Shown one piece after another: positions 36,977 to 48,326 of a DNA stretch of 64,000 nt. Each line of letters begins with the position of its first letter. Within the stretch, counting starts at the first letter, position 1. The position numbers and the translations under genes are program-made. The notes beneath the pieces are model-generated. The model searched no databases. It saw nothing but the letters and a program-made list of their open reading frames with translations, and had not been told where the DNA came from. This stretch comes from Neophaeotheca triangularis (taxonomy: Eukaryota), in contig BAAIJX010000001.1 of NCBI GenBank assembly GCA_054600435.1, forward strand, positions 930,001 through 994,000, written 5' to 3'.

Positions 36977-39900
36977 TCACTCGTACCCAAAAATCATCTC
37001 CCAATCCAACTCGCCCCTTTGGCGCCCAGCGTCCCCGAGCTTCCCCTCCTGTTTCCCCTCCTGCAACCTCCCAGGCGCCTTAGCTGCACCGCTCTCATCT
37101 CCCGCCTCCCCCATCCTCACATCCCCATCACCAGAACGCGCAACCTCATCAAAGCCCAGATCCAACCCGCCAAGCCCCTCAGGCACAGCTGTGTCACCCA
37201 AACCCCGCGGATCCCACTTAAGCGCCATGAACAGGCGGTCGCTCTCGCTGACGTCACTGCCGGAGGAGCCCTGGCTACTAGGAGTGGATTCGGTCGGGGG
37301 ACTGTAATCGCCGAGCAGACCGCCCGTGAGCTCGGGTTCGAGATCAGCAGGGCGCAGGTTCCAGGTGAAGTCGTCAGAATTGGTGGCGGGGAAGAAGTCT
37401 TGGGCGGCGAATGTGGGGTCCAGACCTGCGAGCTCGGTGCCCAGATCGAGATGTGTCGAGAGTAGATCTTGCCAAGCCGCGTTGTTGTCGTTTTCACCTG
37501 TAAGGGCTGGGAGGGACGAGTGGGGTTTGTGAATCGTGGGTGTGTTGTTAGGGGGTGGCGAGGGCAGTGTGAAGCCCATTTGCTCGGCCATGGCGTCTTT
37601 GAGCGATTTCGGGGCCTGCTCGATGGGTTGGTGTTGTTCGGCTGCTGTGGACACTGCTTTGTTCTCGCCCATGGGACGGCGACTAGCGGCCGGAGTGGTG
37701 CTGGTTTTGCCCGCAAGCTTGCTGATTGTGCTCGTGGAAGGCGTGTCAGGGGAGCCCGACACGCCTGCTGCTGCAGCCGAGGGAGTGAGCGCTTCTTGCT
37801 TGATAGCTGGAGTGAGGCCTTCGCGCTTGACGCTATTTTGCAAAGCACCTGCGGCTGAAGATTTCGCCTTGACTTGCAAAGGCGCCTTAGCAACGGACAC
37901 CTGCGCTTTCGGGTTGCCTTCGGCATCCACGTTGAGCGCATCTGCAGCGCTCTCCAGCAGATACTGCAGTGGGTCCTCGTGCGGCTTGTGTTCGGCTTCC
38001 ACATGCTTGCGCAGCGCTTCCTCCGTCTCGAAGCCTGAAATGTAGGCTTGACAAAAGGGATCACCGCGACACTTGAACTTCTGTTTCGCATTCTGCTGCT
38101 CTTCGGCCTCTGCTTTGAGTTGCTGCGGCGTCTTCCGCATGAGCTCTGGACTTGCGCCTTTGATCCCGCCGCTAGCGAGAGGACTCTGCGCGACGATGCC
38201 AGGTGTACCGGCCTGGCTGACCGGTGTAGGCGCATGGCTATTAGCCTCCGGATTGGGCTTCTGCCGCTTGCCCGGGGGCATCTTGAGCTTGTCGGGTGTG
38301 AGTTCATCCTTGCGTGAGTTGGAATAATTCGGCACACCGTGTGGGCTTGACACGCTCCGCTCAGGCCAGTCAAAGGTCTTATTGGCATCCGTAGGTGCCG
38401 GTGGAGCCTTGTTTGACGCATTCTGAGACTTTTTGCCTTGCCCGCCCTGCTGTGCTTTCTTGCCAGCCTCTTGACCCTGCGCCTTCTTCTGATCCTGAGG
38501 CTTCGCAGTGGCAACCTGCTGTTGCGCAGGCGCCTGTGCCGGGGTAGGCGGCTTCGCTGAGCTTCCCGCATTGTTAGCATTCACATGTGCCCTGAACTTA
38601 GACAGCGCCCCAAAGTAAGCCAAGATGATCTTTTCGTACTGCAAGATCTGCTCGAGATTGATAGACAAGTGTCCTTTGATATTGCCATCTTTGTCAGCAA
38701 CGTTCTGACTGAAGATGAGTGCTGCCCGCATTGCACCCTTGATGGTTTCATCGCTTATGAACGGTGCAGTCATAGCAAAATTATACGTCGTCGAGATGCG
38801 TTTGACCGGCTCAAACATGCGGCCAAGGATTGGGCGAGCTTGTTTCATCGCTTGCGCATCAAGCTGGACCGGGGGCCCTTTGGGAGTCTCTTGATCAATC
38901 TCGCGCACAAAGCTTTCGATCTTCGCCTTCACGGCCTGATTCGGATTCGGAGCTGGTTTCTGAGCCTGCTGCTGCTGCTGCTGTTGTTGTTGCTGCGCCT
39001 GAGGCTGCATTTGCTGGCCAGGCTGTTTCGTGGACGCGTTGGGACGGCCTCCAACCTTCCGGAGATTGTCATTCTTCATACGTTGCAGTAGTTCCGCACG
39101 CTGCGCCTCGGGTAAATGCATCATTTGATCCGGAGTCGGCATTTGATAGCCACCTGATCGGTTAGCTTGCATTGGCGGTGCTTGCTGGGGAGTTTCCTGT
39201 TGGCCATTGGGATTTGGTATCTCAACCAGCTCGTCATTCGCGGTCGAGGGACGCTTCTGTCCAGTTTGCTGCCCAGGGGACTGCTGGGATGGGCCCCTCT
39301 GACCAGGGGACTGCTGAGCTCCGTTCCTGGGCATCTGAGGAGCGGCGCCTTTGTTATGCTGCAATTGTGCGTTGCGAATCGCTTGCTGTTGTGCCAACTG
39401 CTGCTGGTTCTGGGTTTGCTGGAGAAAGGCTCGCCTGCGACTCTCCGTGATGTACTGTCGAATCTGCTCATCCGTCTGATTGCCCGATTGTGGGAACTTA
39501 TGACGAAAGGCCTGCAATTCTTGATCTGAAACATTCATGTTAGGCCCACGAGGTGGCATTGGCGCACCACCTTGCCCCTGGTTATGCGGCGCTTGCATTG
39601 GCGTTCCCATGGGCGCAGTCGGAGCCGGACCGCCAGGCATGCCGGGCATGGGTGTGTTCGGAGGGCCGAAGCCTTGACTTTGCCCTTGATGTTGTTGCGC
39701 TTGTTGCTGTTGCTGTTGCGCCTTGTGTTGTGCCATGACTGCTTGCAAAGCGGTGTGCAATTCTTGCTTGTTGTGCGAAAACCATTGACCTTGCCCTTGG
39801 CTCAGCTTGTCCAAGGTGTTGGGAGGCATCTGGCTCTGGTTCTGCAGTACATGTGATTTGAGGTCGCCCCACGACTGGATGTTCTGAGGCGCCGAAATAT

Positions 39901-42221
39901 TTAAGCTTGACAGCATTTTCTTTGGGAATGGACGCGAATCCATGGCTTTTTGACGGATCATGATCTGTTGCTGTTGTCGCATGCGTTCTTGAATCTGGGC
40001 TGATTGGTTTTGACTAGGATTCTGGTTCTGACCATTCATCTGCTGGTTTGCTGGTGGCTGTGAATTGAAGTCTGGGACCGAATTTGCCATGTTTTGCTGC
40101 ATGTTGTTCATGCCACCAGGCTGACCTGGCTGAGACATTGCATTGTTCATCCCAGGCGGCATGCCCATCGGCATGCCTTGACCGGGCATACCGACGCCCT
40201 GTTGTTGTGCCATCGCACGATTTTGCTTCATGTGCATTGAGTGCAATATTCCCTGCACTTGCTCGGGCGTGAAGGTTGCCAACTTTTCCCTGAATTGCGG
40301 TGGCATGCTGTTGATGAGGTTCTGTGCGTCGCCTTGCTGCATCTGACCCGGTACACCCTGAGGCATAGGCTGACCATTGTGATGTGCGTTCATCATTTGC
40401 TGGAAGTGCGCTTGCAGCTGTGTAGGATTACTAGAAGGCGTCGGAGGCATATCTTGCCCTCTGTTTTGCTGTGGCGTGGAAGGATTCTGCTGACCAGGAG
40501 GTCCCATTGGCCTGTTCAGCATTGGCATCTGAGCTGGGCTATTGACCTGCCCAGCAGAGCCACTCATGTTGGTGTTCTGTGCATTCAAACCGCCAGGCTG
40601 ACCGGTCAATTGATTCGGGCGATTCTGCTGCTGTGGCAGTGGTTGCCCTTGTTGTTGTTGTTGCTGCTGCTGCTGCTGACGTTGTTGATGAGCGAGCTGC
40701 AGCGCTTGTGCGTGTTGTTGAGCGGCCTGATTCTGCTTCTGCTTTTCCTGTTGCTGCTGTTTGGCCCGCATAAGCATCTCTGCTTGCATTTGTTGGTTCA
40801 CTGGCTGCTGCGGTTGCTGAGGCCTCTGCTGCTGTTGTTGTTGCTGACCACTTTGCTGGACATTCTGATTCCCGAGCAGCTGAGGGTTGACGCTTTGCGA
40901 CCCATTGTTTTGCTGCTGCTGGCCACCACCCGCATTATTGCGGTTATTGGGATTATTGGGATGATTCGGGTGGTTGGGGTTGTTGCTCGCCGGCACCACT
41001 TGTTCGCCGGACTGCTGCATTTTGATTGCATTGGCCTGCTGTCCCTGGAAGTTGGTGAAATCCGTGTTTCCAGTGCTTTGCTGCATGGGATTGCGGTTGC
41101 TCATGCCGCTATTGTTGCCAGCTTGTGCCACATTCTGGCCTTGTTGAGCATTGTTCGCTCGGCGCTTCTGAACCTGCATGTGGGCTTGCTTGATGACCAT
41201 CTGGAAGAGGGGGTCTTTGCCTCGGATTTGGGCTCGCTGCTGGTCGTTAATCTTCAACAAACACTCGTTCCTCAGCTGTTGTTTTCGTGATTCATTCATG
41301 TTGTTCATCATTTGCCGAGCCTGCGCCAGGACCTCGGGATCAATTCCTTGGGCTTGACCCTGACCTTGCCCCTGCCCTTGTTGCTGTGGATTTCGCGAGT
41401 TGGCGTTCTGCATCTGGGGAGCGCTCATATTGGGCGGCATCTGCTGAGACATCTGCGATCCCTGCAGCGCAGAAGGATCCATGGTATTGCCAGTCTGCTG
41501 AGGAAGCGGCGTCGGCTGCATCGGCCGCTGGAGATGTGCTGGAAAGCCTTGACCCTGTTGACCACCATTGGGCAAGTTCATCTGATTCGGCGGCATGCCA
41601 ATCCCCTGGTTTTGCATGTTCATCCCACCCATCCCGTTCATCTGCATATTCCCAAATCCATGCATGCCGTTCTGCACCATGCCCATGTTGTTGCCCATGT
41701 TGTTCGTCGGCATGTTACCACTCATCTGGCCCATTGCATTCCCGCCCATGCCGTTATCGTTGGGCATACCCATTCCTCCGTTGGTCATGTTCTGTTGCTG
41801 TGCCTGCTGGTTGCGCCTTTGCATAACTTCCTGCATCTTGTGCTTCATAGTGTTGAGGTACATGTCCTTGTTGGCGCTGCTAACCATAGTCTTGTGCTCA
41901 AAGTTTTCGGCGGTGTTTAAGCAAGCGCCAATATTGGGGTTGAGTATTCGTAGTTGGGAGATTCTGGTGACTTGAGTCAGCAGGGGTCATTACAGATCAA
42001 ACGTTGTCTCGGGTAGCTGTTACGCACAGTTGGATAATCTGAGCAGCACGTTCCCGCGCATCCATGGTACATTGCCACCCCATGCCGGTCGCGGGCTGTC
42101 TGGACAAGTCGTCCATGACCTTGGCATGTAGTTGCTGGTTCAAATTACCGGATTGAGGCCGCTGCATTTGGTTCATGTTGGGCGGCGGCATGCCGTTGGG
42201 CATCATGTTCGCTTGCTCCAT
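36977..42221 (-). CDS. MED15: Mediator subunit Med15/Gal11-like (N-terminal KIX-type domain, Q/N/M-rich body), 2 exons
   Basis: Intron about 42027-41964 joins WQCTMDARERAAQIIQL to ISQLRILN...AENFEHKTM...KDMYLNTMKHKM (KIX-like). Polyglutamine tracts and a C2H2-like CRGDPFC...EEALRKHVEAEH near the C-terminus. Confidence 0.78.
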
Positions 42222-43456: not shown

Positions 43457-44388
43457 TTAAGGCATGACCTCGATCCCCTTAAACTCCTTGGTAACCCCAG
43501 TGATTGCCTCCTCCACTGGCAGACGCTCCATACTGCTCGCGCCAAAAAACCCATGCACCCCCCGACACCTACTAAGCACAAACCTCGCATCCTCAGGCCT
43601 CGCAATCGGGCCCCCGTGACATAGCACAATCACATCCCCCCTGACCTCCCTCGCCGCATCCCCAATCGCCTGCACGTCCCTCACGCACTGCTCGAGCGAC
43701 TTTCCACTCTTCGCGCCAATGCCCCCACTACTCGTCAATCCCATATGCGCAACAACAACATCCGCACCCGCCTTCGCCATCAACCTCGCCTCCTCAGGGT
43801 TAAAAACATATGGCGTCGTGAGCAGACCCATCCCAGACGCCAATTCCACCATTCGAACCTCACACTCCTCGTAACCCATCCCCGTCTCCTCCAAATTCGC
43901 CCTAAACTGCCCATCCACCAGCCCAACCGTGGGGAAATTCTGCACACCCGCGAACCCCAAGCCTTTCAGCTCTTGCAAAAATCTCTGCATATCGCGAAAA
44001 GGGTCTGAAGCGCACACGCCCGCTATGACGGGGGTGTGTGAGACGACGGGTAGGATTTCTTTGGCCATGTCTACGACGACGTCGTTGGCGTTGCCGTAGG
44101 GCATTAGGCCCGCTAGGGAGCCGCGGCCGGCCATACGGAAGCGACCGCTGTTGTAGAGGATTAGCAGGTCGCCGCCGCCTTGTTCAACGAATTTGGCTGA
44201 GAGGCCGATGCCTGCGGATGTGAATTGGTTAGTTGAGAAGTTTTTATAGTCGGGGGGTTGGTTTCCTTGTTCTGGTTCAAGGACTTTTTCGCAACCTTAC
44301 CAGCTCCAGCCCCGACGATGGCTTTACCATCCTTGATCTGCTTGCGGAACCCTTCGAGTATTTGCTTCTTATCGGTTGGTGGCGACAT
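43457..44388 (-). CDS. TIM-barrel signal transduction / PEP-hydrolase-like protein (Tm-1 C-terminal domain family), 2 exons
   Basis: Intron 44300-44212. Spliced [49 protein letters not shown]; also [54 protein letters not shown]. Confidence 0.92.
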
Positions 44389-44894
44389 GGTGAATTTGAG
44401 ATACCGACGAACTCAACTGCTGCGAGAGACAGCTACAAGCGAGCCTTTCGGACTGACTCAACCAGAATTGGTCAAGTAGCGGTTGTGTATAGTCTGGAAA
44501 GCGCTTCAGCAGAGTGTCTTCGGCAAGAATGAGAATTGATGCAGTATCTAGGTAATTTTCGATACTCAATTATTGAAGCAACGAGAGAAGTGTCGATCGG
44601 ATGATGGAAGTCGGTTCGGGTTGCTCTGCATGCACCCCAGCATCACTCGGCTCCACAACAGCTACATAAGGTAAGGTACCTACCTGGTATTCATTAACAT
44701 CATACCTTACCTAGCCACGAAAGTTCTATCAACGACCTCTACGAGACCGCAAAGTACCAAACCGACCACCGCCAAGGCAATTCGACATACCCAATAACAA
44801 ACATTCACAAATCTATCGAGGCATCCTTCATCAACAAATCCACTGCCTACCAACCCCAAAACTCAAACAAAGTCGAAAACCAACCCAACCAACC

Positions 44895-46178
44895 ATGCCA
44901 ACCATCCTCCTCCTAGGAACCTTCGACACCAAACTCACCGAACTCCTCCACCTGCACTCGCAAATAACCCGCGCAAACCCAACAACCCACACCATCCTCC
45001 TCGACGTCGGCCGCACACCAACCACGCACCCAGCAATCACAATCCCCCAACCCCACCTCGCCACAACCTACGCCCCGGACCCGCAAAACCCCAAAGACCC
45101 CTCAACCCTGCCCCGCGTCGAAGTGATCAAATACATGACCGCGTGCGCTTGCAACTACATCCGCGAGCACCTGCGCCGCGCCGAGCCCCTTCACGGTATC
45201 ATCGGCGCCGGCGGCAGCGGGGGCACAAGCCTCGCTGCGGCAGTGATGCGCGAGGCCCTGCCTACCGGGTTTCCCAAGTTGATTGTGAGTACCATTGCTT
45301 CCGGCGATACGCGAGCCGTGGTGGGCGAAACGGATGTCACGTTGATGTACTCGGTCGTTGACGTTGCGGGGTTGAATTGGGTTTTGAGACGGGTTTTGGG
45401 GAGTGCGGCGGGGGCTATTGTGGGGATGGCAGAGGCTTATGAGAGGGGGTTGAGGGAGGAGGAGGAGGAGGGGGATGGGGTTGGAGGTGGCGAGCGAAAG
45501 ATGCGTGTCGGTTTGACCATGTTTGGGGTTACGACGCCGTGTGTGACTGCCGTGAAAAAGTTTTTGGAAGAGCAGTATGCGGTTGAGTGTTTTGTTTTCC
45601 ATTGCACGGGTGCTGGGGGTAGGGCGTTGGAGCGGTTGATTAGGGAGGGCAAGATTGATGCGGTCTTGGATGTTACTACGACGGAGATTTGTGATTTTCT
45701 GTTTGGGGGTACTATGAGTGCTGGACCGCAGAGGTTGGAGGCGGCGTTGAAGGCGGGGATTCCGAATGTTGTTAGCCTTGGGGCTACGGATATGGTGAAT
45801 TTTGGCACCAGGGAGACGGTGCCTGAGAAGTATCGGCAAAGGAAGCTGTATGAGCATAATCCTACTGTTACGTTGATGAGGACTTCGCCGGAGGAGTGTA
45901 GAGAGATTGGGGAATTTATGGTAGGAAAAATCAAGGATTTTGCAAAGGAAAGGGGAAATGTCGAGGTCGTGCTGCCTAAAGGGGGCGTAAGCATGATTGC
46001 GGTCCCTGGGGCTGCTTTCGCGGACAAGGAGGCCGATGAAGCAATATTTGGCGCGATAGAGCGAGGGTTACGGAACTCCGGCGTCTTCGTCATTGCTGAC
46101 GACCGGCCGATTAATGACGAGGCATTTGCCATTGACCTGGCTCAGAGGCTGGTACGCAAGATGGGACTTGAAAAGTAG
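44895..46178 (+). CDS. UPF0261 / Tm-1-like ATP-binding domain protein
   Basis: Intronless. Motifs LLGTFDTK, GAGGSGGT, LPTGFPKLIVSTIASG, MYSVVDVAGLN, GLTMFGVTTPCV, VFHCTGAGG, LDVTTTEICD, GATDMVNFG, HNPTVTLMRTSPEE, INDEAFA. Confidence 0.93.
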   Translation: MPTILLLGTFDTKLTELLHLHSQITRANPTTHTILLDVGRTPTTHPAITIPQPHLATTYAPDPQNPKDPSTLPRVEVIKYMTACACNYIREHLRRAEPLHGIIGAGGSGGTSLAAAVMREALPTGFPKLIVSTIASGDTRAVVGETDVTLMYSVVDVAGLNWVLRRVLGSAAGAIVGMAEAYERGLREEEEEGDGVGGGERKMRVGLTMFGVTTPCVTAVKKFLEEQYAVECFVFHCTGAGGRALERLIREGKIDAVLDVTTTEICDFLFGGTMSAGPQRLEAALKAGIPNVVSLGATDMVNFGTRETVPEKYRQRKLYEHNPTVTLMRTSPEECREIGEFMVGKIKDFAKERGNVEVVLPKGGVSMIAVPGAAFADKEADEAIFGAIERGLRNSGVFVIADDRPINDEAFAIDLAQRLVRKMGLEK

Positions 46179-46790
46179 AGCGTGAAATGTCTTTCTTGGA
46201 GCTGATACAAGCTTGCAAATATGCTCAGCCGAGCAGTCTGAGTCGTCTGTGTGATGTCAAGGAGGACAAGGATTCTGATCACACTCCGTGAATGTAACCA
46301 CTAATGTGTCGCTGCACGCTGCTCGCTGGCCCAAGGCTCAAACGGGGATATCCTAACTTTTCACTCACAAGCTCTCTGAATTGCAGCGAAGTGCACTGCC
46401 ACCGAATCCTTTAGAACCCAGGACGATGAGTCTTTTTCAATAGCCGTGCGATCAATCACAAGCCTACGAAGCACGATCTGGTCGGAGAAGGAACTCGATG
46501 ATGTGCTTGATTTTCTGCCTTGGGAACTCGGTATCCGAGCGAGACAGTACCCAAGGAACCACTTCAAGTACCAGGAGTAAGAGGCGCGGTCATCCAGATC
46601 ATGTGCCAGTAATTCCGCTGATCGCAAGACACGAAGAGGGCATTGCCGGGAAGTCGAGGGCACTTTGCACCCGTTATCCCAACTATCGAAGCTCCGGGCG
46701 TTGTCGAGACGAAGAGCTGAGACAGCTTGTGGAAGCGGGCGCCTTCTGTATCCAAGTAGAACATCGTGGCAGCAAAGCGTGACCTTGAGT

Positions 46791-47231
46791 TCAAACGGAC
46801 TTCTTATCAAGCCCAGCAAGTCTCCTATGTTCAAGCAAATAAGCAGACCACATCATCGCCACGACAACCGTGAACATGACATCCTGCGGCGGCTTCTCAA
46901 ACTCGGGGTCGTTCCAATCGGTCCCGGGATACAGAATGGCAACCAAGCCGGCAGCACAGTAGAAGCTGCCAACAAGGGCGGCGTTGAAAGTGTTCTCTTT
47001 CGCTTGTTGTACGGTGGCGGCAGGCCGAAAGGCAAAGTACAGGCTCGTCAGGGAGAGGAAGACACCCAGGGTCATGGTTTGGCCGTTATGGAACTTGGCG
47101 TGAGGTGGCCATCTTGGATTGAGGACGTGGGTTTCCGACCAGTCGGCCACGAAGGCCCCTACGCCGTAGAAGAGATTACCCAAGAGGATGAGGATACGGG
47201 CTGGTGTGATGGGAGGAGAGATGGCGGCCAT
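46791..47231 (-). CDS. Small multi-pass membrane protein of unknown function (DUF6640-like)
   Basis: Intronless, 146 aa, four hydrophobic segments, with the conserved-looking ADWSETHVLNPRWPPHAKFHNGQTMTLG motif. Confidence 0.75.
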   Translation of the reverse strand: MAAISPPITPARILILLGNLFYGVGAFVADWSETHVLNPRWPPHAKFHNGQTMTLGVFLSLTSLYFAFRPAATVQQAKENTFNAALVGSFYCAAGLVAILYPGTDWNDPEFEKPPQDVMFTVVVAMMWSAYLLEHRRLAGLDKKSV

Positions 47232-47885: not shown

Positions 47886-48326
47886 ATGGGTCTCGCCTAT
47901 AACGTCTACCTCAACACCAAGCGCATCTACGGCTGCAAGAACTGCAAAACTCACCTTGCCGACCACGAAGAGATCATCAGCAGGGTGAGTCCATGCCCAT
48001 CGACCCGTTCCCCCACCACCATCCAGAGTAAACAGCCTAATCACCCAAGACATGCAAACAAGCCCCCAACTAACATGTACATGCGCCCAAAGAACTTCCG
48101 CGGCCAGCACGGCAAAGCCTACCTCTTCAACAGCGTCGTCAACATTCTCGCGGGCGAAGCGGCCGAGCGCAACATGACAACTGGCCGCCACGTGGTTCGC
48201 GACATCTGCTGCCGGCAGTGCAAAGAGACAGTTGGCTGGAAGTACGACCGCGCGTACGAGAGCACGGAGAAGTACAAAGAGGGCAAGTTCATTCTCGAGC
48301 AGGAGCTGATGTGCACGGTGACTTAG
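47886..48326 (+). CDS. MOH1: Yippee/Moh1 zinc-binding protein, 2 exons
   Basis: MGLAYNVYL...YGCKNCKTHLA...IISR / NFRGQHGKAYLF...MTTGRHVVRDICCRQC...VGWKY...KYKEGKFILE. Intron 47985-48092. Confidence 0.92.
   Translation: MGLAYNVYLNTKRIYGCKNCKTHLADHEEIISRVSPCPSTRSPTTIQSKQPNHPRHANKPPTNMYMRPKNFRGQHGKAYLFNSVVNILAGEAAERNMTTGRHVVRDICCRQCKETVGWKYDRAYESTEKYKEGKFILEQELMCTVT

What the first reader, a model, noticed from the sequence alone, without database searches (positions are those of the whole stretch)
43457..46178. Split Tm-1 module: TIM-barrel gene and UPF0261 gene head-to-head around a 506-bp spacer
Seen: two intact genes transcribed divergently from the spacer 44389-44894. Established: the tomato tobamovirus resistance protein Tm-1 is one polypeptide with an N-terminal UPF0261 ATP-binding domain, which binds viral replication proteins, and a C-terminal TIM-barrel domain. 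The two families are also neighbours in many prokaryotes, and their native biochemical role is unresolved. Inference: here the halves are separate but co-regulated, so they likely form a two-subunit system, either an unknown ATP-dependent metabolic or signalling step or a mycovirus restriction factor. An AT-rich patch on one side and an uncharacterised membrane gene on the other are compatible with an accessory island.
Basis: partly seen in the sequence, partly recalled or inferred. Interest (0 to 1): 0.8.

Follow-up and report, generated by a model that had tools for sequence, protein, structure and literature searches.

The report
Fungal split Tm-1-type gene pair
This is an ordinary fungal copy of a widespread, already described two-gene unit, a kinase-like gene beside a barrel-enzyme gene, which plants carry fused as the virus-resistance protein Tm-1; what the unit does chemically is still unknown.

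Summary
A 427-aa UPF0261 gene (44895-46178, +) and a 280-aa PF09370 TIM-barrel gene (43457-44388, -) are transcribed divergently from a 506-bp spacer. The barrel gene has one 89-nt intron, and an RNA contig confirms its splicing.

The pairing is not chance. Of 13 fungal-type metagenome loci with enough upstream DNA, 12 show the same head-to-head layout, with spacers of 204-528 bp and no other shared neighbour. Five named Dothideomycete genomes give the two genes consecutive locus tags. Of 80 named prokaryote genomes, 70 have the genes adjacent on one strand.

Much of this is already in print. Yang et al. 2016 described the split state and the co-evolution in fungi. A 2022 profiling paper ranked the pair third among fungal co-occurring pairs. 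Hall et al. 2025 showed that a UPF0261 protein (MarK) is an ATP-to-ADP small-molecule kinase. This scan has met the pair before on bacterial DNA.

The window protein keeps the ATP-site lysine and the acceptor histidines but not MarK's specificity residues. The best reading is a co-expressed kinase plus barrel module acting on an unknown polar metabolite. The antiviral and accessory-island readings have no support.

The parts
44895..46178 (+). UPF0261 gene: single exon, 427 aa plus TAG stop. Tm-1 N-half / MarK-type ATP-binding, kinase-like protein.
   Evidence: ORF. Pfam PF06792 plus PF23189. NCBIfam NF002674 at 410.5 bits against a cut-off of 335. PDB Tm-1 3WRY 9.3e-73 and MarK 9MPY 2.3e-47. 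RNA contigs of runs X2 (45502-45713) and X1 (46012-46228) and a contig of X4 (45298-45995) lie on it.
44389..44894 (.). 506-bp spacer between the two start codons; presumed shared bidirectional promoter.
   Evidence: Sequence read. Homologous spacers in 12 fungal-type loci are 204-528 bp. No k-mer is shared above the shuffle control, so promoter function is inferred from geometry only.
44301..44388 (-). TIM-barrel gene exon 1: 88 nt, the first 29 codons plus one base.
   Evidence: The same 29-residue head (M.PPT.R..IL...GAGA) is found upstream of the barrel in 12 of 12 fungal-type loci. The RNA contig of X3 covers 44300-44370.
44212..44300 (-). Intron of the TIM-barrel gene: 89 nt, GT..AG, phase 1.
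   Evidence: A spliced RNA contig skips it. The intron sits at the same position in 8 of 12 fungal-type loci and is absent in L003, L012, L013 and L014.
43457..44211 (-). TIM-barrel gene exon 2: 755 nt including the TAA stop. PF09370 'PEP hydrolase-like' / TBST barrel.
   Evidence: Pfam PF09370 9.4e-106. PDB 2P10 (Mll9387) 6.7e-105. Model pLDDT 77.4, pTM 0.77. Fold match to 2P10: Foldseek E 8.9e-30, VIA Z 26.1.

Best explanation
The locus is the Dothideomycete orthologue of the ancient UPF0261 / PF09370 two-gene module, the split form of plant Tm-1-like proteins.

Shown here: there are two intact genes. One is spliced and is seen in RNA. Neither has an N-terminal extension beyond the Pfam domain. 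They sit head to head across 506 bp, and this layout is kept across fungi while all other neighbours change.

Inferred, step 1: the short spacer acts as a shared bidirectional promoter, so the two proteins are made together.

Inferred, step 2: the UPF0261 protein is an ATP-to-ADP small-molecule kinase, as shown for MarK. It keeps the ATP-site lysine (K13, equivalent to Tm-1 K20 and MarK K16). It also keeps the glycine and the two histidines that hold the phosphoryl-acceptor oxygen and stack on the substrate in MarK (G211, H236, H321).

Inferred, step 3: its substrate is not MarK's phenolic ketones, because four of MarK's seven pocket residues differ. The invariant pocket is polar and charged, so I expect a polar, probably anionic metabolite.

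Inferred, step 4: the TIM-barrel protein binds or converts the same molecule, most simply the phosphorylated product. I put about even odds on the two proteins forming a physical complex, against acting in sequence.

Overall this is a conserved metabolic module, not a defence gene and not an island.
For: Family assignment.

Catalytic residues:
- In the 49-row family alignment, G8, T9, D11, T12 and K13 are conserved in 90% or more of rows. G211, H236 and H321 are invariant.
- The mapping to MarK G195, H219 and H304 was counted by hand on the HMMER alignment.
- Their roles in MarK, and ADP as the product, come from passages of PMC12624787.

Conserved linkage in fungi:
- 12 of 13 fungal-type metagenome loci with at least 985 nt upstream have the barrel gene head to head.
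- Six more fungal-type loci were too short upstream and were not scored.
- Consecutive locus tags occur in Cercospora berteroae, C. kikuchii, Zasmidium cellare, Elasticomyces elasticus and Meristemomyces frigidus.

Linkage in prokaryotes:
- 54 of 61 non-fungal loci anchored on UPF0261 have the barrel gene adjacent on the same strand.
- 70 of 80 named genomes anchored on the barrel have UPF0261 on the same strand, 68 of them within 600 nt; one more has it on the opposite strand.

Fusions in the same domain order: about 750-aa plant proteins, and one 758-aa Aspergillus rambellii model.

Only the pair is syntenic, and composition is uniform.

Bacterial context points to uptake-linked metabolism: 16 of 48 loci have a co-directional ABC-transporter ATPase ORF upstream.

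Expression: a spliced barrel transcript and a UPF0261 RNA contig occur in two runs of one metatranscriptome study.

Pairwise distances of the two proteins correlate: r = 0.91 over 49 loci, r = 0.90 over 42 bacterial-type loci, and 0 of 999 permutations were as high.
Against: - No physical interaction was tested, so the complex is inferred only from linkage and fusion.
- MarK is active alone as a homodimer and has no barrel partner. A UPF0261 kinase therefore does not need one.
- Four of MarK's seven substrate-contact positions differ here (T196/V212, F283/M300, I285/N302, H348/I368; hand-mapped). The substrate is unknown.
- The barrel's chemistry is unresolved. After 2P10, the next structural neighbours are close together: an uncharacterised phosphate-binding barrel at Z 16.1, triosephosphate isomerase at 15.1, phosphonopyruvate hydrolase at 14.2. 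A profile search reaches FabK/NMO-type barrels only at E 0.03-0.09.
- Exceptions to linkage exist. Fungal-type locus L007 has 4 kb on each side and no barrel gene. Six Planctomycetota genomes have a barrel gene with no UPF0261 within about 5 kb or more.
- No sequence motif is shared by the fungal spacers above the shuffle control, and no co-expression series was available.
- The distance correlation is expected for any two genes inherited together, so it is weak evidence for binding.
Confidence: 0.6

Rival explanations
1. The UPF0261 protein is not a substrate kinase here. It is an ATP-binding switch or activase that regulates or matures the TIM-barrel enzyme, and the barrel carries the only chemistry.
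For: In MarK the ATP site lies about 25 A from the substrate site, and how the phosphate is transferred is unexplained (passages of PMC12624787). Wild-type MarK has Glu at the lysine position and is about 1600-fold slower. Tm-1 uses bound ATP to bridge a protein-protein contact. The barrel is the more conserved partner: mean column identity 74% against 58% over the same 49 loci.
Against: The acceptor-binding Gly and His residues of MarK are invariant across the paired family. That is hard to explain if no small molecule is phosphorylated. No activase of this fold is known to me (recalled, not searched).
Confidence: 0.15
2. The pair is a signal-transduction module, as the old family name 'TIM-barrel signal transduction protein' implies.
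For: Only the database name (PIRSF/InterPro wording repeated in PMC5028733) and source names.
Against: The Pfam scans show no sensor, receiver or output domain in either protein. The barrel's closest solved relative is a structural-genomics enzyme-like barrel. Bacterial neighbours are transporters and metabolic regulators.
Confidence: 0.05
3. The pair is a mycovirus restriction factor that works like Tm-1, by binding viral replication proteins.
For: Homology to Tm-1's inhibitory N-terminal domain (9.3e-73).
Against: - Tm-1's antiviral activity needs only the N-terminal domain and depends on a small positively selected patch, residues 79-112 (PMC3855732 introduction). It is therefore a derived property of one plant lineage.
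- The fungal genes are single, widely kept orthologues: about 60% identity for UPF0261 and 72-83% for the barrel across Dothideomycetes.
- The same pair sits in metabolic or transport operons in bacteria.
- There are no PADLOC hits, although that library covers bacterial systems only.
Confidence: 0.03
4. The genes are part of a recently acquired accessory island.
For: A 500-bp stretch of GC 0.43 lies left of the barrel gene. A DUF6640 membrane-type gene lies to the right. The barrel is 58-72% identical to bacterial ones.
Against: - GC is 0.50-0.62 in every 1-kb bin of the window.
- Thirteen ascomycete barrel sequences, including the window's, form one clade with 98% SH-aLRT support.
- The UPF0261 sequences of the fungal-type loci form one clade with 99% support.
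- The intron position is shared with 8 of 12 fungal-type loci.
- Orthologues are present throughout the Dothideomycetes.

Any transfer from bacteria was therefore ancient, as Yang et al. 2016 argued.
Confidence: 0.02

Closest known systems
Plant Tm-1 / Tm-1-like proteins (tomato Tm-1, 754 aa; PDB 3WRV-3WRY for residues 1-431)
   Same: The same two modules in the same order when fused: UPF0261 N and C subdomains, then the PF09370 barrel. UPF0261 matches Tm-1 at 9.3e-73. The barrel is 64-68% identical to the plant C-terminal domains. The ATP-site motif G-T-x-D-T-K is kept.
   Different: Here the modules are two genes on opposite strands, not one polypeptide. There is no evidence of virus binding. 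In my barrel tree the fungal sequences form their own clade, separate from the plant clade, but the backbone is unresolved.
MarK (Saro_1862) of Novosphingobium aromaticivorans, PDB 9MPY
   Same: Same fold and family (2.3e-47). The equivalents of MarK G195, H219 and H304, and of the activating lysine K16, are present.
   Different: MarK stands alone in an acvCDEF operon without a barrel partner. Four of its seven substrate-contact residues differ here. The window protein is closer to Tm-1 than to MarK.
Bacterial UPF0261-PF09370 operons, including Mll9387 of Mesorhizobium loti (PDB 2P10)
   Same: The barrel matches 2P10 at 6.7e-105, with 63% identity in the Foldseek alignment. The two genes are adjacent in 70 of 80 named genomes.
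   Different: In bacteria the genes are co-directional: 64 UPF0261-then-barrel, 6 barrel-then-UPF0261, and only 1 divergent. They are often preceded by ABC-transporter genes. In fungi the genes are divergent, carry an intron and have no fixed neighbours.
Orthologous pairs in annotated Dothideomycetes (for example Cercospora berteroae CBER1_04642/04643, Zasmidium cellare PRZ48_000749/000750)
   Same: These are direct orthologues: UPF0261 about 60-62% identical, the barrel 75-83% identical, with consecutive locus tags.
   Different: Nothing of substance. The window's spacer (506 bp) is at the long end of the 204-528 bp range. The window lacks the NmrA-like gene that follows UPF0261 in 5 related loci.

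Membership tests
UPF0261 (PF06792 + PF23189) | Both Pfam domains above the gathering score, full length | tested here: met
   197.2 bits (cut-off 27) and 303.1 bits (cut-off 27). Profiles covered 1-175 of 176 and 1-217 of 218.
UPF0261 (PF06792 + PF23189) | ATP-site lysine (Tm-1 K20 = MarK K16) in the N-terminal G-T-x-D-T-K motif | tested here: met
   K13 in the window protein. The local alignment to Tm-1 residues 9-32 is weak on its own. It is backed by conservation of G8/T9/D11/T12/K13 in 90% or more of 49 rows and.
UPF0261 (PF06792 + PF23189) | ATP-dependent phosphoryl transfer to a small molecule | not testable with these tools
   Shown only for MarK E16K (PMC12624787).
PF09370 (PEP hydrolase-like / TBST barrel) | Pfam match and similarity to the family's only solved member, 2P10 | tested here: met
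   353.3 bits (cut-off 33.8). 2P10 at 6.7e-105. VIA Z 26.1, rmsd 2.2 over 226 residues.
Tm-1 / Tm-1-like protein | UPF0261 and barrel in one polypeptide | tested here: not met
   The two genes are on opposite strands.
Tm-1 / Tm-1-like protein | Binding of viral replication proteins | not testable with these tools
This property is allele-specific in tomato.
MarK-type aromatic kinase | The seven substrate-contact residues of MarK (G195, T196, H219, F283, I285, H304, H348) | tested here: not met
   3 of 7 are kept (G211, H236, H321). 4 of 7 differ (V212, M300, N302, I368). Hand-counted on the alignment.
MarK-type aromatic kinase | Location in an acvCDEF-type acetovanillone operon | tested here: not met
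   The neighbours are the barrel gene, a DUF6640 gene, a Yippee-type gene and a Q-rich ORF.
Isocitrate lyase / PEP mutase superfamily (for the barrel) | Closest structural neighbours, after its own family, belong to this superfamily | tested here: inconclusive
   Members score Z 12-14 and TMq about 0.6. An uncharacterised phosphate-binding barrel (Z 16.1), triosephosphate isomerase (15.1) and other barrels score as high or higher.
Known anti-phage / antiviral defence systems (PADLOC-DB) | Match to any defence-system protein model | tested here: not met
   0 families for either protein at E up to 0.01. The library covers bacterial systems only.

The most novel reading that the evidence does not exclude
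The two proteins form an obligate heteromer. An ATP-to-ADP kinase hands a phosphorylated polar metabolite directly to a phosphate-binding barrel. This would catalyse a still undescribed metabolic step that Dikarya have kept under one bidirectional promoter since their common ancestor. In some Dothideomycetes it would be extended by the NmrA-like reductase gene found directly downstream. Solving it in a fungus would also give the long-sought native function of plant Tm-1.
Probability: 0.3. Interest if true: 0.55.

Novelty: new member of a known kind. Interest (0 to 1): 0.3.

Why it matters
The native function of Tm-1-type proteins is still unassigned although Tm-1 has been studied as a resistance gene for years. 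The pair occurs in bacteria, archaea, fungi and plants. This window adds no new kind of system.

The survey done here does make one small point that I did not find in print. In fungi the two genes are held head to head across 204-528 bp while everything around them is reshuffled. That is good comparative evidence that they work together. It also gives a compact two-gene unit that could be deleted or expressed as one piece in a tractable ascomycete.

The searches behind the 'not in print' statement were made, plus the passages and sections of Yang et al. 2016 read. Papers from subscription journals are not covered by these searches.

Tried and rejected
- Heterodimer prediction. Complex prediction (alignments A2 + A3) was never accepted. 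Nothing was folded, so this says nothing for or against binding.
- Substitute test. I tried to fold the natural 758-aa fused protein P0243 with 42 fused relatives (alignment A4) and read its pTM.
- Whole-genome search. No genome is held for this window.
- First metagenome scan, with the single protein. None of the 588 pattern matches was confirmed as a relative. The second scan, with alignment A1, worked.
- Spacer motif search over 12 fungal spacers. The best 8-mers occur in 4 spacers, and the shuffled maximum is also 4. No shared element was shown.
- Flank conservation. The window's DUF6640 and Yippee proteins, and six-frame searches of both flanks, found nothing in 22 fungal-type or candidate loci.
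- PADLOC. No hits.
- Assigning the barrel to a superfamily failed. Foldseek and VIA rows after 2P10 are close together. The profile search reaches only E 0.03-0.09.
- RNA runs. The four coded runs hold only 6-20% of the sampled words, and all are contigs. They show presence and one splice. They give no expression level, no transcript ends and no co-regulation. Parts of the stretch without cover mean nothing.
- Supplements of the brown-rot transcriptome paper. No occurrence of the family names in the 4 files held. Whether the barrel gene rises together with the UPF0261 gene listed in that paper's table is therefore unknown.
- Earlier notes of this scan, searched by place and by sequence. Nothing was found.
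- Variability test for an arms race. I looked for a hypervariable patch in the region matching Tm-1's selected residues 79-112. Residues 61-105 are among the less conserved parts (0.49-0.67 majority fraction in 24 fungal sequences), but so is the inter-domain linker. I draw no conclusion from this.
Full report
WHAT IS THERE

One search lists a 427-aa ORF on the + strand (44895..46178) and two minus-strand ORFs (43457..44134 and 44161..44388). Reading the minus strand shows that the two minus-strand ORFs are one gene:
- Exon 1 is 44388..44301.
- The intron is 89 nt (44300..44212, GTAAGG...CCGCAG, with a CTAAC-type branch motif).
- Exon 2 is 44211..43457.

The spliced CDS is 843 nt = 280 aa without an internal stop. 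It is collinear over residues 1-278 with 5 of 5 annotated fungal orthologues compared, at 70-83% identity.

A contig from an RNA-seq run (X3) joins 44210 to 44300, skipping exactly these 89 nt with GT..AG ends on the gene's strand. It has 4 other letters in 246. So the splice is real, in a near-identical relative or strain.

RNA contigs of X2 (45502-45713) and X1 (46012-46228, labelled RNA only as a guess) lie on the + gene.

FAMILIES

The + gene matches both UPF0261 domains over their full profiles (PF06792 2.8e-58, PF23189 1.1e-90). It also matches NCBIfam NF002674 above its cut-off.

Among solved structures it matches the inhibitory N-terminal domain of tomato Tm-1 (3WRY, 9.3e-73) and MarK (9MPY, 2.3e-47).

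Exon 2 of the minus-strand gene matches PF09370 (9.4e-106) and Mll9387 of Mesorhizobium loti (2P10, 6.7e-105).

I made an AlphaFold model of the exon-2 piece (250 of 280 residues; mean pLDDT 77.4, pTM 0.77). It superposes on 2P10 at Foldseek E 8.9e-30 and VIA Z 26.1. After that, the neighbours are close together:
- an uncharacterised 'conserved phosphate binding site' barrel, 4ML9, at Z 16.1;
- archaeal triosephosphate isomerase at 15.1;
- phosphonopyruvate hydrolase at 14.2;
- many others at 12-14.

A profile of 49 barrel sequences reaches FabK/NMO-type FMN barrels only at E 0.03-0.09. The barrel's superfamily, and so its chemistry, stays open.

Three model segments have pLDDT below 50 (residues 22-30, 96-112 and 161-167 of the piece). 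They coincide with invariant motifs of the family. This may reflect mobile active-site or interface loops, or the missing first strand.

WHOSE GENES

The nearest UPF0261 proteins are Dothideomycete:
- Cercospora, Pseudocercospora, Hortaea, Zasmidium, Friedmanniomyces and Aureobasidium at 57-62%;
- the best non-self hit is 72%, from an unnamed assembly.

The nearest barrels are also Dothideomycete. Meristemomyces frigidus (family Teratosphaeriaceae, order Mycosphaerellales) is 82-83% identical. Many sources already name the barrel gene 'ToMV susceptible protein tm-1(GCR26)'.

IS THE PAIRING CONSERVED?

I anchored a metagenome scan on UPF0261 (alignment A1 of 24 fungal sequences). I then located the barrel gene in all 80 loci by tblastn.

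Nineteen loci are fungal-type (UPF0261 identity 50% or more to the window: L001-L018 and L075).
- Thirteen have at least 985 nt upstream. Twelve of these carry the barrel gene on the opposite strand, head to head (L002-L005, L008, L009, L011-L014, L017, L018).
- L007 has 4 kb on each side and no barrel gene.
- Six loci (L001, L006, L010, L015, L016, L075) have 0-698 nt upstream and were not scored.
- The rows are not all independent. L017 and L018 are near-identical, and L002, L005 and L011 are close relatives.

All 12 scored loci encode the same 29-residue first-exon peptide. Eight share the intron position, and four (L003, L012, L013, L014) lack the intron. Spacers are 204-528 bp.

Eukaryotic neighbours confirm that these are fungal loci: Med5, a HET domain, GH76 and ferric reductase.

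Five named genomes give the two genes consecutive locus tags.

Nothing else is shared. The window's DUF6640 and Yippee proteins and both flanks find no match in the fungal loci.

Of the other 61 loci, 45 have UPF0261-then-barrel and 9 have barrel-then-UPF0261 on one strand. Seven have none, some of them with short flanks.

A reciprocal scan anchored on the barrel in 80 named prokaryote genomes gave the following:
- 64 UPF0261-then-barrel;
- 6 barrel-then-UPF0261;
- 1 divergent (an Isosphaera MAG);
- 9 without UPF0261.

Six of those nine have about 5 kb or more on both sides, and all six are Planctomycetota.

So the linkage is ancient. The divergent layout is the fungal form of it.

FUSIONS

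A search for longer proteins found the fused form almost only in plants (about 750 aa, barrel part 64-68% identical). There is one 758-aa Aspergillus rambellii protein, P0243, with the Tm-1 domain order.

In a 98-row barrel tree (quick IQ-TREE, SH-aLRT only):
- the 13 ascomycete rows, including the window and P0243, form one clade (98);
- P0243 groups with a split Aspergillus barrel (89);
- plants form a separate clade (99);
- the backbone is unresolved, and L017 sits on a long branch elsewhere.

Yang et al. report plants and fungi as sister groups. My tree neither confirms nor rejects that.

P0243 still contains the start peptide of the split barrel genes in its linker. A merged model of two tandem genes therefore cannot be excluded.

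WHAT IS ALREADY KNOWN

Yang et al. 2016 (PMC5028733; abstract, sections 9 and 10, and passages read) reported the following:
- The two domains are encoded by separate genes in bacteria, archaea and Dikarya.
- 61 of 68 fungal genomes with a barrel gene have exactly one of each.
- The distance matrices of the two proteins correlate (r = 0.81 in fungi).
- Two Aspergillus genes are fused.

In the text I read, the paper does not mention physical adjacency in bacteria or fungi. The words operon, synteny and neighbour occur only in other senses.

Fukunaga and Iwasaki 2022 (PMC8963296; one passage read) list COG5441-COG5564 as the third-ranked co-occurring pair in fungi, with a STRING score of 0.988.

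Hall et al. 2025 (PMC12624787; abstract and passages) showed that MarK is an ATP-dependent kinase of acetovanillone and related phenolics, with ADP as product. MarK is a stand-alone UPF0261 homodimer in an acvCDEF operon. They call this the first catalytic activity for the domain.

Kato et al. 2013 (PMC3855732; introduction read) state three things. Tm-1 is 754 aa. Its N-terminal domain (1-431) alone is inhibitory. Residues 79-112 are under positive selection.

A Sclerotinia preprint reports host-regulated alternative 3' splice-site use in intron 1 of the barrel gene (one passage).

A brown-rot transcriptome table lists a UPF0261 gene among late-upregulated genes.

This scan has met the pair before on bacterial DNA (eight notes). 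I used those notes as leads only.

MECHANISM

On the HMMER alignment, I counted by hand which window residues match MarK's contact residues.

Residues kept:
- MarK G195 and H219, which hydrogen-bond the phenolic oxygen, correspond to G211 and H236.
- MarK H304, which stacks on the ring, corresponds to H321.
- All three are invariant in 49 paired-family sequences.
- K13 matches Tm-1 K20 and MarK K16, and is conserved in 90% or more of rows.

Residues that differ:
- MarK T196, F283, I285 and H348 correspond to V212, M300, N302 and I368.

The invariant residues around the pocket are mostly polar or charged: T213, T214, D259, T262, T263, E264, D267, R280, D299, N302, R316 and R329.

I therefore read the protein as a competent kinase whose substrate is a polar, probably anionic metabolite and not MarK's aromatics. 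This is inference.

The barrel most simply acts on the same molecule. Whether the two proteins bind each other is open.

The distances of the two proteins correlate (r = 0.91 over 49 loci; r = 0.90 over 42 bacterial-type loci; 0 of 999 permutations as high). Any two genes inherited together would show this.

In the bacterial-type loci, 16 of 48 have a co-directional ABC-transporter ATPase ORF upstream. Nine have a flotillin gene, four an SRPBCC (Polyketide_cyc2) gene, and two each an IclR regulator, a GntR regulator or a solute-binding protein nearby. These counts come from crude ORF calls on 150 ORFs. They fit uptake-linked metabolism.

In 5 of 14 fungal-type loci with enough downstream DNA, an NmrA-like reductase gene follows UPF0261. 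The window has none.

WHAT IS NOT SUPPORTED

Defence. There are no PADLOC hits. The genes are single conserved orthologues. Tm-1's antiviral action is a lineage-specific property of the N-terminal domain.

Accessory island. Every 1-kb bin of the window has GC 0.50-0.62. The GC 0.43 patch is 500 bp of intergenic DNA between the barrel gene's 3' end and the next gene's 5' region.

WHAT COULD NOT BE DONE

The complex predictor was never available. No genome is held for the window. No annotated fungal genome collection was on hand, so the fungal survey rests on metagenome contigs and on locus tags.

VERDICT

However, the locus is an ordinary orthologue of a gene pair whose split state in fungi is published. 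The only modest addition is the conserved head-to-head layout in fungi. Interest is 0.3.

Noticed in passing
L001:2609-2983, L002:5814-6776, L004:5543-5761, L005:5246-6190, L015:1455-1703: An NmrA-like (PF05368) NAD(P)-binding gene lies directly downstream of UPF0261 on the same strand in 5 of 14 fungal-type loci with enough downstream DNA. The 64-kb window has no homologue. It may be a third pathway gene in some Dothideomycetes.
   Followed up: partly
L081, L083, L105, L109, L147, L150; L134: In six Planctomycetota genomes the barrel gene has no UPF0261 gene within about 5 kb or more on either side. An Isosphaera MAG has the pair divergent, as in fungi. Pirellulales barrels are the bacterial ones most similar to the fungal barrel, at 70-72%.
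   Followed up: no
P0243 (Aspergillus rambellii, 758 aa), residues about 470-500: The annotated fused protein keeps the start peptide of the split barrel genes (M-A-P-P-T...) inside its linker. It may be two tandem genes merged by the gene model and not a true fusion. Either way, the genes are co-directional in that species, unlike the head-to-head form.
   Followed up: partly
L007 (fungal-type, UPF0261 59% identical): This UPF0261 gene has 4 kb on each side, no barrel gene, and no recognisable neighbour families. It is either a translocated copy or a stand-alone paralogue.
   Followed up: no
window 43460-44209 (-), model residues 22-30, 96-112, 161-167: The three least confident loops of the barrel model (pLDDT below 50) coincide with invariant family motifs. 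Possible explanations are mobile active-site or partner-binding loops, or an artefact of modelling without the first 30 residues.
   Followed up: no
window 36977-41887 (-) and 41997-42221 (-): A 1636-aa Gln/Asn/Pro-rich ORF with a further short upstream ORF, and no Pfam match. It is the next gene on the barrel gene's strand, and its 5' region holds the GC 0.43 patch.
   Followed up: no
window 46791-47231 (-) and 47886-48326 (+): A 146-aa DUF6640 gene (1.7e-25) lies tail to tail with UPF0261. Next to it is a Yippee/Mis18-type zinc-binding gene (5.8e-14) whose Pfam match spans a long insert, suggesting introns. Neither gene is conserved beside the pair in other fungi.
   Followed up: partly
L023, L024, L030, L035-L037, L039, L045, L046, L052, L054, L055, L062, L064, L067, L070: In 16 of 48 bacterial-type loci an ABC-transporter ATPase ORF lies upstream of the pair on the same strand. 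Three of these ORFs are about 850 aa with the ATPase domain near the C-terminus. Nine loci have a flotillin gene just downstream.
   Followed up: no
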